A program made the translations under genes and the position numbers. Of a stretch of DNA of 64,000 nucleotides, positions 2,246-53,200 are shown one piece after another (the stretch's first letter is position 1; every line of letters begins with the position of its first letter). The DNA comes from the human T2T-CHM13v2.0 reference genome, Homo sapiens: the NCBI RefSeq assembly GCF_009914755.1, contig NC_060934.1. One strand, given 5' to 3'. The notes under the pieces are model-generated. The model did not search any database, had not been told where the DNA came from, and saw only the letters and a list, made by a program, of their open reading frames with translations.

Positions 2246-34521
<32,276 letters not shown>

Positions 34522-39048: not shown

Positions 39049-42000
39049 ATAGGAGTAAGGATTTCACATTATTTTTTGTAAGGTTTACAGTAGAGAGACT
39101 CTCTTTGTTTTTGAATTCATTTAATTTTTTTCTTTAATTTTTAATTTCTGTGGGTACATAGTGTACTTATTTATGGAGTATATGAGATGTGTTGATACAG
39201 GCATGTAATGTGTAAAAATCACATCACAAAAAATAGAATATCCATCCCCTCAAGCATTTATCCTTTGAGTTACAATATAATTATGCTCTTTTAGTTATTT
39301 TAAAAGGTACAATTCAATTATTAATGACTATAATCACTCTGGTTTTCTATCAAATAGTAGGTCTTTTATTTTAACTATTTTTTTGCATTCATTAAGCACC
39401 CCAGATACCCCCACCCTCCCACTACCCTTCCCAGCCTTTTGTAACTATGAGAGAGTAACTTCTCTAATAGACAGTAGAGTTACCAGAGGATGGGAAGGGT
39501 AGTGGGAGAATGGGGGGTATGAAATGAGTTAAATTTCTTTGATTTTTAGAACCCACAAATAAGTGAAAACAAGCAATGTTCATCTTTCTGTGTCTGGCTT
39601 ATTTCACTTAACATAGTGATCTCCAGTTGCATCTAAGTTGTTGCAAATGACTGGATCTCATTCTTTTTTTATGGCTGAATAGAACTTCTTTGTGTATATA
39701 TGCCACATTTTCTTTATCCATTCGTCTGTTGATGGACACTTAGGTTGATTCCAAATCTCGGCTATTGTGAGCAGTACTGTGACAAACATAGGAATGCAGT
39801 TATCTCTTTGACACACTGATTCCCTTTCTTTAGGGTATACACCCAGCAATGGGATTGCTGGATCATATGGTAGCTCTATTTTTAGTTTCCAAGAAACCTC
39901 TAAACTGTTCTCTCATAGTGGTTGTAGTAATTTACCTTCCCACCAACAGTGTATGAGGGCTCCCTTTTCTCCACATTCTCTTTATTTGTTATTGCCTGTC
40001 ATTTGGATATAAGCCATTTTCACTGAAGTGAGATGATATCTCATTGTAGTTTTAATTTGCATTTCTCTGATGATCAATGTTAAGCACATTTTTATATGCC
40101 TATTTGCCATTCATACATCTTCTTTTGAGAAATATCTATTTGAGTGTTTTGCCCATTTTTTGATCAGATTATTAAATATTTTTCTACAGAAATGTTCGAG
40201 CTCCTTATATATTCTGGTTACTAATCTTGTGTCAGATGGGTAGTTTGCAAATATTTTCTCCCATTCTGTGGGCTGTGTCTTCACTTTGTTGATTGTTTTA
40301 TTTATTATGCAAAAGTGTTTTAACTTGATGTGATCTAATTTGTCCACTTTTGCTTTGGTTGTCTGTGCTTGTGGGGTATAGCTCAAGAAATCTTTGCCCA
40401 GACCAATGTGTTGGAGATTTTCCTCATTGTTCTCTTGTAGTATTTTCATAGTTCGAGGTCTTAGATTTAAGTCTTTAATCCATTTAGATTTGATATTTGT
40501 ATATGATTATAGATAGAGGTCTAGTTTCATTCTTCTGCATATGGATATCCAGTTTTCCTAGCACCATTTATTGAAAAAACTGTCTCTTCCCCAGTGTATG
40601 TTCTTAGCACATTTGTCAAAAGTGACTTCACTGTAGTTGTGTAAATTTGTCTCTGGATTCTCTATTCTGTTCTATTGGTTTATGTGTCCTTTTTTTATGC
40701 CGGTACCATGTTGTTTGGGTTACTCTAACCTTGTAGTAAAATTTGAAGTCAGGTAATGTGGTTCTTCTGATTTTATTATTTTTGTTTAGAATAGCTTTTG
40801 CTATTCTAGGTCTTTTGTAATTCCTTATAAACTTTAGGATAGTTTTTTTGTCTATTTCTGTGAAGAATGACGTTTTTTTTTGGTAGTGATAGCATTGAAT
40901 CTGTAGATTTCTTTGGGTAGCAAGAATATTTTAACAATATTGATTCTTCCATTCCATGAACATGAAATATCTTTTCATTTGTTCCCTGTTCTCTTCAATT
41001 TTTTAAATTAGAGTTTTACAGTTTTTTTATAGAGATCTTTCTCTCATACTATTAAGTTAATTCCTAGATCTTTAATTTTGTTTGTGACTATTGTAAATGA
41101 GGTTACTTTTTAATTTTTTTTCAGGTTGTTCACTGTTGACATATAAAAAGACTACTTATTTTTGTATGTTGATTTTGTATCATGCAACTTTACTAAATTT
41201 CTAAATCAGTTCTAATAGCTTTTTTAGGTGGAATCTTTTGGTATTTCCAACTATAAGATTATACCATCTGCAACAAGGGTAATTTGAATTTGTCCTTTTC
41301 CATTCAAATGCCCTTTATTTCTTTCATTTGTCTGATTACTCTAGCTAGGACTTCCAATATTATGTTGAATAACAGTGGTGAAAATAAAAATGGGCATTGT
41401 TTTTAAACTCTAGATCTTAGAGAAAAACCTATCAATTTTTCCTCTTTAAGTAAGATAATAGCTATCATAATTAATAGTTCCATCATATATGAGTTTTACT
41501 GTGTTGAGTTTTATTTCCTTTATTCCCCGTTTTTTGAGGGTTTTTATCATGAAAGGATGTTGAACTTTATCAAATGATTTTCCAGCATCAATTGAAATGA
41601 TCACATAGTTTTCATTCTGTTGACAGGATGTATCACATTAATTGACTTGCATAAGTTAAACTATCTTTCCATCCCAGGGATAAATCCCACTTGATCACAA
41701 TGAATGGTCCTTTTAAAATATTGCTGAATTCAGCTTGCTAGCATTTTGTTGAGAATTTTTGCATCAATATTCATCAGCAAAATTGGCCTATAGTTTTTTC
41801 TTTTTGATATGTTTTTGCCTGGTTTTATTGTCAGGGTTACACTGGCTTTGTAGAATGAGCTTGGAAGTATTCCCTCCTGCTCTATTTTTTTTGGGGGGGC
41901 ATAGTTTGAGTAGAATTGGTATTAGTTGTTTTTTAAATGTTTGGTGGGATGCAGTGGTGAAGCTTTCGGGTCCAGGGCTTCTCTTTACAGGAAGATTTTT

Positions 42001-42879
42001 AATACAACTTTGATCTCATTACTTGTTATTGACATGTCAGGCTTTAGATTTCTTCATGTTTCAATCTTGATAGATTGTATATGTCTAGGAATTTGTCCAC
42101 TTTTTCTAAGTTTTTCAATTTATTGACTTATAGTTGCTCATAGTAACCACTAATGATCCTTTAAATTTCTGCAGTATCAGTTGTTAGGTCTCTTTTTTCA
42201 TCTCTGATTTCATTTATTTGGGTCTTCTCTTTTTAAAATTAATCTTGCTAGAGGTTTTTCAGTTTTGTTTAACCTTCCAAAATCAATGTTTTGCTAATTC
42301 ATCTTCTATATTATTTTCTTTTCAATTTAATTTATTTCTGTTTTGATCTTTATTATTTCTTTTCTTCTAGTTTTGGCTTTCATTTGCTCTTGCTTTTCTT
42401 GTTCTTTAAGATGCATTGTTATGATTATTTATAGGAAGGTTTTCCTCTTTTTTTGATGTAGGCACTTACAGCTATAAACTTCCTCTTAGTACTGCTTTTG
42501 CTGTATCTCATAGGTTTTGTTATGTTGTGTTTCTATTATCATTTATTTCAAGAAATTTTCAATTTTCTTCTAAATTTCTTCATTGACCCACTGGTCATTC
42601 AGGAGCACACTGTTTAATTTTCATATATTTGTATATTTTCCAAGATTCCTCTGTTATTGACTTCCAGTTTTACTTTACTGTGGCCATAGAAGTTGGTTTA
42701 TATTATTTCAATTATTTTTGAATGTTTTAAGACTTGTTATGTGACTTAAGATATGGTCTATTATTGAGAATAATCCATGTGCTGAGGAAAAGAGTATGTG
42801 TTCTAGAGTGATTATATAAAACCTTTTGTAAATATCTATTATATCCATTTGATGTGTAGTGCAGATTATGTCAGATGTC

Positions 42880-43103
42880 TCCCCTCCCCTCCCCTCCCCT
42901 GCCCTCCCCTCCCTCTCCCTCCCCCTTCCTTTCCCTTCCCTTCCCTTCCCTCTTTTTCTTTTCTTCTTCTTTTTTTTTTTTTGGGGTAGAAACATTGTCT
43001 CAGTATGTTGCCAGGCTGGTCTCAAACTCCTGAGCTCAAGTAATCTGTTCACTCTGGCCTCCCAAAGTGCTGGGATTACAGGTGTGAGCCACTGTACCCA
43101 GCC
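42880..43103 (-). mobile_element. Alu left monomer (FLAM/AluJ-like) with tail expanded into a (CCCCT/CCTT)n polypyrimidine tract
   Basis: ccaggctggtctcaaactcctgagctcaag...tgggattacaggtgtgagccac; ~100-bp pyrimidine run at 42880-42982. Confidence 0.85.
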
Positions 43104-43306
43104 TCTTTGTTTACTGTCTGTCAAGTGGACCTATCCAATGTTGAAAGTAAAGTGTTGAAATCTCCAGCTATTATTGTATTAAAGTTTACCTTTCTATATA
43201 TCTAAAATCATATTTGCTTTACATATCTGGGTGCTCCAGTGTTGGATGCATATATATTAAAAATTCTCATATCATCTGTCTCAATTGTCTCCATTATCAT
43301 TAAATG

Positions 43307-43322
43307 GGGTCATCAAAGTTGA
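43307..43322 (+). promoter_or_regulatory. Distal CAR/PXR DR4 element GGGTCA-tcaa-AGTTGA (about -8.8 kb)
   Basis: DR4 motif at -8786..-8801 from the ATG, matching the recalled functional CYP2C8 xenobiotic-response element. Confidence 0.8.
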
Positions 43323-44024
43323 CTTATTTGTTTCTTCTTACAGTTTTTTTTTCTTCTTATAGTTTTTGTCTTAAAATCTATTTAGTCTGATATTAGTATG
43401 GCTACACCTGCTCTTTTTTGGGTTCCAATGGCATGGAATATATTTTTCCATTTTTTTACATTCAGTCTATGTGTGTCTCTATAGGTGAAGTGTGTTTCTT
43501 GCAGGCAACGGTCAATAGATCTTGCTTTTTCCTCCATTCAGCCACTCTGTGTTTTGATTGGATGGTTTATTCCATTTACATTCAATGTTATTATTGATAA
43601 GTAAGGACTTACTCCTTCCATTTTCTCATTTGTTTTCTGGTTGTTTTGTGGTCTTCTTTCCTTCCTGTCTTCCTTCTAGTGAAGGTGATTTTCTCTGTTG
43701 ATACAGTTTAGTTTCTTGCTTTCTATTTTTTTTGTATCCATTTTATGTATTTTGACTTGAGATTCCCACATGGACTTGCAAATACTGTCTCAGTACCCAC
43801 TATTTTAACCTGATAAAAATGTAACACTGTTTAGATAAACAAACAAACAAGCAAAAATGAACTAATAAAAGTTCTACACCTCAACTTCCTCCACCTGCTT
43901 TTTAACTCTTTGTAGTATCTATTTATATCTTACAGCACTGCCTATTTCTTGAAAAAGTTGTTGTAGTTATTATTTTTGATTGGCTCATCATTCAGCCTTT
44001 CTACATAAGATAAGAGTAGTTTAT

Positions 44025-44330: not shown

Positions 44331-50224
<5,894 letters not shown>

Positions 50225-53200
50225 AAAAAAAGAGTAGTTTATACACAACAATTAGAGTGTTGTAATATTCTGTGTTTTCCTGTGTACTTACTGTTACCAG
50301 TGAAATTTGTATCTTGAGGTGCTTACTTATTGCTTATTTATTTCTTTTTCTTTCTGATTAAAGTACTCCCTCTAGCATTTCTTGTAGGACAGGCTTTGTG
50401 TTGACAAAATCCCTCACCATTTGTCTGAGAAAGTCTTTATTTCTCCATTTTTGAAGGATTTATTTTTATTTTTATTTTTATTTATTTATTTTTTTCACAG
50501 ATACACTATTCTAGGGTAAAATCTTCTTTCCTTCAGCGGTTTAAATATGCCATGCCACTCTCTTCTGGAATGCAAGGTATGCACTGAAAAGTCTGCTGCC
50601 ATACATACTGGAGCTCCATGGTATATCATTTCTTTCTTTTCTGTTGCTGCTTTTAGAATACTTTTTTTTAAAAAATCCTTAACCTTCGGGAGTTTTATCC
50701 TTAAATGCCTTGAGGTAGTCTTCTTTGGATTAAATCTGCTTGATGTTCCATAACCTTAGATACTAATATCTTTCTCTAGGTTTGAGAAGTTCTCTGTTTT
50801 TATTCCTTTGAATAAACTTTCTATCCTATCTCTTTCTCTACCTCCTCTTTAAGGCCAGTAACTCTTAGACTTTCCATTTTGGGGTTGTTTTTTAGATCTT
50901 ATAGCAGTGCTTCATTGCTTTTTATTTTTATTTTTGTCTCCTCTGACTGTGTATTTTTAAATAGCGTATCTTTAAGCTCACTAATTCTTCTTTAGTTTGA
51001 TCAGTTCTGTTATTAAAAGACTGATGCATTTTTCAGCATGCCAATTGGATTGTTAAACTCCAAGATGTCTTCTTGATTTTTAAAAAATTATTTCAATCTT
51101 TTTATTAGCTTTATCTGATAGAATTCTGAATTCTTTTTCTGTGTTATCTTGAATTTCTTTGAGCTTCCTAAACAGAGCTATTTTGAATTCTCTGTCTTAA
51201 AGGTTACATATTTCTGTTTCTTTAGGATTGGTCTCTGGTGCCTTATTTAGTGTATCTGGTGAGGTTATGTTTTCTTGGATTTTCTTGATACTTGTTCATC
51301 TGTATCTGGGCATTGATGAATTAGGTATTTATTGTAGTCCTTGCAGTCTGAGCTTGTATGTACCAGTCCTTCTTGGTAGGTTTTTCAGTTATTTGAAAGA
51401 ATTTGGGTGTTGTCTAAGCTGTATCTGCTTTAGGTGATAATGAAATCTCAGTAATGCTGCAGTTCTTGCAGATTCATTGAGTTACCATCGTGATGTTCTC
51501 GGACAAAATTTTGGAGAATTCTCTGCATTACCAGACAGATGCTCTTGTTCTTTCTTCAAACTTTCTCTCAAACAAACAAAGTCTCTCTCTTTTGAGCCAT
51601 CTGAAGCTGCAGGTGGGTGACACAAGCAACCCTGTGGCCTCCACCACTATGACTGCACTGGTTCAAACCTGAAGCCAACACAGCACCTGATCCCACCCAT
51701 GGGCTTCTGTAACTATGCTTTGTTTAACAACTATCTGTTAGAAAAAAAACAGTCTTGAATAAACAATACCATATGTTTGCTCAAAACCCTAAGGCTCTGC
51801 ACTCAGCAGGTGGCAACGCCAGCCGGGCTTGTGTCCTTCCCTCCAGGATGGTGAGGTCCTCTAGGCCATAGGTGAGTCCAAAAGTCCTGTCAGGACCCAG
51901 GGACTAGAGTCAAAATCTTTAGAAGTATACCTGGTGTTTTGTGGTACTGTGGCTGAGATGGCACTCAAACTACAAGATGCAGTCCTTCCCACTCTTCCTA
52001 CCCTTTCCAAAGGCAGAAGAGTCTCACTCCATGGCCACCACCATGACAGACCCCTGGGAAGTTCTACAAGACTACCACTGATGGTCCATTAAGGCTTAAG
52101 GGCCTCAGGCAGCTTGTATTTAATGCTGCCTGGCCTATAACTCACTATTAGGGAAGTGGGCTCCCCTCTCGTCCTGAACTTTGCACCTCTGTGGCCAGGT
52201 TGGTACCCAAAGCCTGCAAGTCTCAGAGTCTCACTCAAAGTTTGCAATTTAGTATCTTAGTATCACCGTTGATTATTCAGGGCTTAAGGACTATTTATTC
52301 ATCAGGTGATGGATGCTGCTAGGACTGGGTCCTTCTCTTCAACACAGCCTTTCTGGGCCAGAGTTGTCTAGAAATATCATCAGGGAGCTAGGGACTAGAA
52401 CCAGGGCCTCATGACTCTGACTGGTGCCCTATCTTGCTGTGGGTGACTGGGTATCCAAAATGCAAGACAAAGTCTTTTTGACTCTTCTCTCTCCTTGCCT
52501 CAAGTGGAAGGAAAGGATCTCTTTTGGAGCTGTGAGCTGTGCAGCCTGAGGTTTTGGGGAGGGGAGGTGCCAGCACTCCCTTAGCCATCACCAGCTGATG
52601 TCTCAATAGGTCACGTTCCCCACCCACCCTGTCTACTGACTCTGGGCCCAGTTCAGCACTAGGACTCACCTAAAAGTTGGAGTCCTTGTGATCTAGGCTG
52701 CCTTTTAAGAGTATTTAGATACTCTAGAGCATGTTAGCCCATGGGGGAGAGGCTTGCGGGAACTCAAGTTCCATCTCCTGGATTGACAATTCTCTCTTTC
52801 TAGGGCTGGTTTAAATGCTCCATTTGTGGGCAGGTATCAGCTGAGTCTGTTCTGGCTTTCCTTTCTGCTGTAACAGGACAGCACTGAGTTCAATGCCTCA
52901 CAATTGCTGTGTGTTCTCTCCCCCAGCTCTCGGAAATGCTTTCTGCAGCACACAGTAGCTGCAGAGGTAGGGGCAAGAGATGGGGGAGGGATGGTATTGT
53001 TTATTCAAGACTGTTTTTTTTTCTAACAGATAGTTGTTAAATTGGTGTCCTGTCAGGGGGGATGATTATTGGAGCCTTCTATGTTGTCATATTGTTCCAC
53101 CTTCCCTCCAGTATTTTTAAGAGAGAGAGAAAAAAAAAACTTGTTCTGTTTTGATATTTTTTTCTTTTAACTTTTAGTTTGATTATGTTGTAGTTAGTAT

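What the first reader, a model, noticed from the sequence alone, without database searches (positions are those of the whole stretch)
43286..43322. CYP2C8 distal CAR/PXR element lies in an old L1 and seems to have been born by inverted micro-duplication
Seen: the DR4 GGGTCA-tcaa-AGTTGA sits in the ORF2 endonuclease region of the minus-strand L1MA-type element. AATGGGGTCA (43303-43312) is an 8/10 reverse complement of TGTCTCCATT (43286-43295), with a 7-nt loop. Against my recalled L1M consensus (ttgacccctttatcattatataatgacc) the GGGGTCATCAAAG segment is extra, and the consensus TGACCCC is its inverted template. Inference: a template switch created the first half-site, so rifampicin/phenobarbital inducibility of CYP2C8 would be an exaptation of L1 DNA.
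Basis: partly seen in the sequence, partly recalled or inferred. Interest (0 to 1): 0.7.

Follow-up and report, generated by a model that had tools for sequence, protein, structure and literature searches.

The report
Drug-response switch born inside an L1
The known drug-response switch of the liver enzyme gene CYP2C8 sits inside an old jumping-gene (L1) copy, and half of it comes from an 11-base insertion missing from the related L1 copies checked, likely copied backwards from neighbouring DNA.

Summary
The observation largely holds. The DR4 at 43307-43322 is identical to the published CYP2C8 -8806 CAR/PXR site. It lies in the ORF2 endonuclease region of an old minus-strand L1, about 14% diverged from its relatives. 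None of 45 related L1 copies has the DR4 within 1 mismatch. Half-site 2 also differs from the relatives, by one added base. So the site arose after the L1 inserted. The template-switch mechanism is favoured but unproven (about 0.55). Random inserts gave as long an inverted match in 37 of 6000 simulations, but reached the observed pair-HMM score in 94 of 863. A chrX stretch matches the whole junction at 25/27 (chance about 0.004-0.01) and is a rival donor. No primate orthologues could be tested, so date and selection ('exaptation') are open. Verdict: a known element whose origin my searches did not find in print; new member of a known kind.

The parts
43307..43322 (+). DR4 nuclear-receptor element (GGGTCA n4 AGTTGA); the published CYP2C8 distal CAR/PXR site, also bound by PPARalpha/RXRalpha
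   Evidence: identical sequence in PMC4631943
43306..43316 (.). 11-nt net insertion relative to related L1 copies; supplies half-site 1 and the 4-nt spacer
43285..43295 (-). Likely template arm; paralogue majority has GGGGTCAA here, the CYP2C8 copy now differs at 43293, 43290 and 43288
   Evidence: column counts; best inverted source
43317..43322 (+). Half-site 2 (AGTTGA): native L1 sequence with one added base against the paralogue majority
   Evidence: pairwise alignment; junction context
43327..43364 (.). 19-nt tandem duplication of L1 sequence, copies differ at 2 of 19
   Evidence: (family D2)
39108..44023 (-). Host L1, 3' end to start of ORF2; 13-14.5% diverged from the paralogue majority
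50230..51400 (-). Likely 5' continuation of the host L1, cut off by an Alu-like insert (from about 44018) and a younger L1
   Evidence: 82% over 1196 columns, collinear with the 44023 end
43104..43621 (-). Decayed ORF2 endonuclease coding region that holds the DR4
42880..43102 (-). Alu-like monomer with a C/T-rich tail, inserted into the L1
42987..43404 (.). RefSeq functional enhancer; made wholly of the Alu-like monomer and L1 DNA
   Evidence: hub annotation

Best explanation
The known CAR/PXR DR4 of CYP2C8 lies in an old L1 and depends on an 11-nt insertion that the related L1 copies checked lack, and that insertion was likely copied in inverted orientation from the L1's own GGGGTCAA about 15 nt away. 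Shown: the L1 context, the insertion, the absence of the DR4 in 45 paralogues, and the template in their majority. Inferred: a polymerase switched strand, or a broken end folded back, and copied 8-11 nt; a 3-nt slip set the spacer to four; one added base made half-site 2; the template arm later took two substitutions. From the literature: CAR, PXR and PPARalpha heterodimers act through the site in binding and reporter assays. Untested: date, order of events, selection.
For: DR4 in 0 of 45 paralogues at <=1 mismatch; 2 of 45 at 2 mismatches, with a different spacer. Insert has a 7-nt exact inverted match to the majority within 20 nt, direct match only 4 nt; two overlapping inverted pieces cover all 11 nt (chance 0.1-0.5% at +-30 nt, inverted only). 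Allowing the derived base at 43293, the inverted match is 10 nt: reached by 37 of 6000 random inserts, 17 of 6000 GC-matched, 3531 of 6000 simulated switches; at exactly 10, 370 against 27. Prior: at least 15% of human non-slippage insertions are pseudo-palindromic (PMC3638132); 2 of 14 non-tandem inserts in the paralogues have an inverted match >=7, 0.4 expected. Median switch length in apes is 12 nt (PMC7954356). The same L1 has a clear ~50-nt inverted duplication at 39467-39517.
Against: Pair-HMM calibration: 94 of 863 random inserts reach the observed score, and scores near it are as common for random inserts (245) as for true switches (214). A clean single switch does not explain 4 of the 11 nt; a second slip is needed. 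The posterior runs from 0.05 to 0.93 with assumed rates (0.005-0.39 in the stricter). The 2-of-14 excess is within the permutation maximum of 3. The 10-nt statistic was chosen after seeing the data, and simulated tandem duplications also reach it in 362 of 6000. A chrX stretch matches the whole junction at 25/27. The ancestor is a paralogue majority, not a primate outgroup.
Confidence: 0.55

Rival explanations
1. The 11 nt are an untemplated or untraceable insertion from break repair, and the inverted match is chance. The DR4 is still born inside the L1.
For: 94 of 863 random inserts reach the observed pair-HMM score. 12 of 14 non-tandem inserts in paralogues have no inverted match >=7.
Against: Only 0.3-0.6% of random inserts give a 10-nt inverted match; 1-2.4% give a 7-nt one.
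Confidence: 0.27
2. A 27-nt piece was captured from a distant locus (chrX, G000:C23:21290610-21290636) and replaced 16 nt of L1, bringing most of the DR4; two later substitutions on either side made the sites differ.
For: It is the only other hit within 3 mismatches in the genome (2 mismatches; backwards control 0). Expected hits at <=2 mismatches 0.004-0.010. It shares the derived bases on both sides of the insert, so one event would replace about five.
Against: No clear homology beyond the 27 nt; a second nearby similarity is reached by 142 of 2973 random 63-mers. The chrX stretch is single-copy, so no repeat family offers it as donor. I chose the 27-nt borders after seeing the alignment. 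Distant capture of so short a piece is, from general knowledge, rare.
Confidence: 0.1
3. The insert is an 11-nt tandem duplication that has since decayed.
For: Tandem-like inserts are common: 14 of 38 inserts of 8-30 nt in paralogues. A 19-nt one lies next to it.
Against: Insert identity to adjacent sequence is only 36%; 2 of 863 simulated decayed duplications reach the observed score.
Confidence: 0.05
4. The DR4 was carried in by the L1 subfamily itself.
For: The paralogues are only top-ranked hits (40 candidates scored of thousands per search), so a rare source lineage may be missing.
Against: 0 of 45 paralogues have it; the +30 nt and stops break the frame that is open in the majority; the 4 other exact 16-mers in the genome are not in this L1 region.
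Confidence: 0.02

Closest known systems
CYP2C8 -8806/-8822 CAR/PXR DR4 (Ferguson et al. 2005, as cited in PMC4631943)
   Same: Identical 16-nt sequence upstream of CYP2C8; inside the RefSeq enhancer 42987-43404.
   Different: Nothing in the element. The L1 context and origin are not in the passages I read; my distance to the start codon is 8786-8801 nt, 20 nt off the published numbering.
Transposon proto-motif maturation / 'epistatic capture' (RSINE1, Alu, MER39; PMC8240256, PMC3649676)
   Same: A binding site absent from the element's consensus arises after insertion near a gene.
   Different: Those cases mature by point changes, often at CpG, and recur in many copies. Here an insertion builds the site once, on the strand opposite to the L1's own half-sites.
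Short-range template switching (PMC5453318, PMC7954356; pseudo-palindromic insertions PMC3638132; yeast promoters PMC13100816)
   Same: Short inverted copy of nearby sequence, about 10 nt, net length gain; events are enriched in TF binding sites in apes.
   Different: Those sets use 1-2% diverged genomes with near-perfect copies. This event is old, needs an extra slip, and would not pass a strict test.
LINE-1-derived enhancer of apolipoprotein(a) (as reviewed in PMC3649676)
   Same: L1 DNA acting as a liver enhancer of a human gene.
   Different: Tested by deletion in transgenic mice (about 30% of activity); I found no such test for CYP2C8.

Membership tests
CAR/PXR DR4 response element | Two RGKTCA-like half-sites in direct repeat with 4-nt spacer | tested here: met
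   (1 mismatch to RGKTCA x2)
CAR/PXR DR4 response element | Receptor binding and ligand-dependent activation lost on mutation | not testable with these tools
   Reported in PMC4631943 (own PPARalpha data; CAR/PXR data cited from earlier work)
LINE-1 retrotransposon | ORF2 endonuclease homology and collinearity with other L1 copies | tested here: met
   (E 9e-14)
L1MA subfamily | Match of the 3' end to the Dfam subfamily model | not testable with these tools
   No repeat library held; label recalled; 14% divergence is only compatible
Short-range template switch event | Inserted bases are the reverse complement of nearby ancestral sequence | tested here: met
   7 nt exact to the majority, 10 nt with one derived base
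Short-range template switch event | Switch model significantly better than ordinary insertion models | tested here: inconclusive
   94 of 863 random inserts reach the score; 37 of 6000 by the match-length test
Short-range template switch event | Ancestral and descendant states placed on a species tree | not testable with these tools
   No primate genomes held (no relatives)
Transposon-derived site matured after insertion | Site lies in the transposon and is absent from related copies | tested here: met
   0 of 45 at <=1 mismatch
Exapted transposon enhancer | Purifying selection, or loss of expression on deletion in native chromatin | not testable with these tools
   No orthologues or population data

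The most novel reading that the evidence does not exclude
One short template switch, with a 3-nt slip, wrote a working CAR/PXR/PPARalpha site into dead L1 coding DNA, and human CYP2C8 induction by rifampicin and CAR ligands has depended on it since: a datable, one-step birth of a clinically relevant drug-response element.
Probability: 0.3. Interest if true: 0.62.

Novelty: new member of a known kind. Interest (0 to 1): 0.4.

Why it matters
It traces a validated human drug-response element to a specific mutation in a dead retrotransposon, which is rarely possible. It predicts that primates lacking the L1 or the insert lack this route of CYP2C8 induction, which bears on animal models of drug interactions. 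If the switch is confirmed, it links template switching to a function-tested human site; the papers I read show only enrichment in apes and an experiment in yeast. Each ingredient is already known, so surprise is moderate.

Tried and rejected
Present-day hairpin as evidence: not significant. L1-borne DR4: absent; the majority's own weak DR4 is on the other strand and has decayed here. Upstream AGGTCA as template: the longest inverted match lies downstream. A repeat family as donor: the 4 other exact 16-mers (about 1.6 expected, my estimate) share no flanks beyond a few bases. A sub-lineage lacking the GGGG template: no paralogue stands out in shared derived bases (top 17 of 118, smooth tail; L024, which shares two template changes, has 9). 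ChIP support: no peak coordinates at the estimated hg19 position among the places shown from 11 searched supplements of PMC4183418; two picture files were not searched and I saw no peak list, so this says nothing either way. Ferguson 2005 and Chen and Goldstein 2009 are not held. Primate promoter papers: 0 and 2 irrelevant hits.

Full report
Observation. The 16-mer GGGTCA-tcaa-AGTTGA is at 43307-43322, and 43303-43312 is an 8/10 reverse complement of 43286-43295. It lies 8786-8801 nt upstream of the CYP2C8 start codon and inside the RefSeq enhancer 42987-43404. PMC4631943 (passages and section 21 read) prints the same sequence on the gene strand as the -8806/-8822 CAR/PXR site of Ferguson et al. 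2005. It says the site is essential for activation by rifampicin and CITCO, and shows PPARalpha/RXRalpha binding and loss of activation on mutation. Ferguson 2005 itself is not held, so the CAR/PXR data are second-hand.

Context. The minus strand here is a decayed L1 ORF2 endonuclease (best E 9e-14). The L1 runs from about 39108 to 44023 and likely resumes at 50230-51400; an Alu-like monomer, a second Alu-like insert and a younger L1 interrupt it. It differs from the majority of its best-matching relatives at 13.3-14.5% of sites (118/886, 204/1453, 325/2319; 14.5% of 524 columns). The subfamily name L1MA is recalled, not tested. The whole annotated enhancer is transposon DNA.

Insertion. I compared 45 other copies from the same genome: 19 and 29, less 3 duplicates. 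Each search scored 40 of several thousand candidates, so these are best hits, not a random sample. Between two anchors the CYP2C8 copy has 102 nt; 42 paralogues could be measured, 39 have 66-74 nt (16 have 72) and three have 80, 90 and 102, with unrelated extra bases. L015, one of three not measured, has a different insert at the same spot. The 30 extra nt split into a 19-nt tandem duplication (43327-43364) and an 11-nt insert (about 43306-43316). The insert gives half-site 1 and the spacer. Half-site 2 is native L1 with one added base. No paralogue has the DR4 within 1 mismatch; 2 of 45 have a 2-mismatch look-alike with another spacer. So the site arose after the L1 inserted. This part is firm.

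Mechanism, for. Most paralogues carry GGGGTCAA at 43292-43285. The insert matches its reverse complement exactly over 7 nt, and a second overlapping 4-nt piece covers the rest, as an 8-nt inverted copy with a 3-nt slip would. Chance is 1-2.4% for the 7-nt match and 0.1-0.5% for full cover (inverted only, +-30 nt, 25,000 draws per null; about twice that if either orientation counts). If the change at 43293 came before the copy, the match is 10 nt. Simulated random inserts reach that in 37 of 6000, GC-matched in 17 of 6000, true switches in 3531 of 6000. PMC3638132 (passages) puts pseudo-palindromic events at 15% or more of non-slippage insertions. PMC7954356 (passages) gives a median copied length of 12 nt and enrichment in TF binding sites. 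The same L1 holds an unmistakable ~50-nt inverted duplication in its 3' end, absent from 14 of 14 paralogues.

Mechanism, against. A pair-HMM that charges for the extra slip picks the same template but does not separate the models: 94 of 863 random inserts, 2 of 863 decayed tandem duplications and 703 of 863 true switches reach the observed score. Posteriors span 0.05-0.93 over 54 parameter settings, and 0.26-0.85 for the middle rate with 93% tandem share; the stricter first model gave 0.005-0.39. These rates are my assumptions. In the paralogues, 38 inserts of 8-30 nt were found: 14 tandem-like, 10 low-complexity (dropped), 14 other; 2 of those 14 have an inverted match of 7 or more against 0.4 expected, within the permutation maximum. 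The present-day hairpin is not significant.

A rival donor. The 27-mer 43302-43328 has one other hit within 3 mismatches in the genome, on chrX, with 2 mismatches. Expected hits at that level are 0.004-0.010. There is no clear homology beyond the 27 nt and the stretch is single-copy. Both mismatches fall in the half-sites. I give it about 0.1: the match is as unlikely by chance as the inverted one, but capture of so short a distant piece with look-alike flanks has a low prior (my judgement).

Function and exaptation. Activity rests on binding and reporter assays. PMC4183418 (passages and supplement hits) finds CYP2C8 induced 6.7-fold by rifampin (qPCR) and two other rifampin-dependent enhancers in the CYP2C locus, so sole dependence on this site in native chromatin is not shown. 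Its locus figure and peak lists were not visible and may bear on this. PMC3649676 (passages) warns that reporter effects of transposon enhancers can shrink in vivo. Selection was not tested.

What is known. Site maturation after transposon insertion is described (PMC8240256, passages), and template switching as a driver of promoter change is shown in yeast (PMC13100816, abstract; PMC5453318, search listing only). Searches for an L1 origin of this site found nothing relevant in the listings; searches for primate orthologue data found nothing. The library lacks most subscription papers, and a genome-browser repeat track would likely show the L1 overlap at once.

Verdict. Known element, real post-insertion birth inside an L1, likely by inverted local copying (0.55). 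New member of a known kind; interest 0.4.

Noticed in passing
window 39408-39517: A ~50-nt inverted duplication in the 3' end of the same L1 (hairpin E 3e-16; inverted piece 81% to the paralogue majority), absent from 14 of 14 paralogues. A much clearer template-switch-type event than the DR4 insert.
   Followed up: partly
window 43274-43291: The template arm now forms a 9-nt tandem pair (7 of 9 alike) that the paralogue majority lacks; local differences peak at 13 per 40 columns, hinting at a further templated change.
   Followed up: partly
paralogue majority, homologous to window 43285-43345: The L1 majority has a weak DR4 (2 mismatches) and two good half-sites 16 nt apart on the L1 sense strand; all have decayed in the CYP2C8 copy, whose working DR4 is on the other strand.
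   Followed up: partly
L067:1501-1527 (G000:C23:21290610-21290636): Single-copy chrX stretch matching the DR4 junction at 25/27, about 55 nt from an L1 3'-end fragment.
   Followed up: yes
L015 and L017, homologous to window 43305-43330: Two paralogues carry their own, different insertions at the same spot; possibly an insertion-prone site, though the search favours such copies.
   Followed up: no
window 23895-29006 and 45106-50224: Two younger L1 copies, 92% identical over 5.1 kb, in opposite orientation: one in a CYP2C8 intron, one upstream, flanking exons 1-4 and the promoter.
   Followed up: no
window 15954-16696 and 16798-18326: Intronic L1 pieces resembling the host L1's family (86% to the majority; 75% to the host copy).
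   Followed up: no
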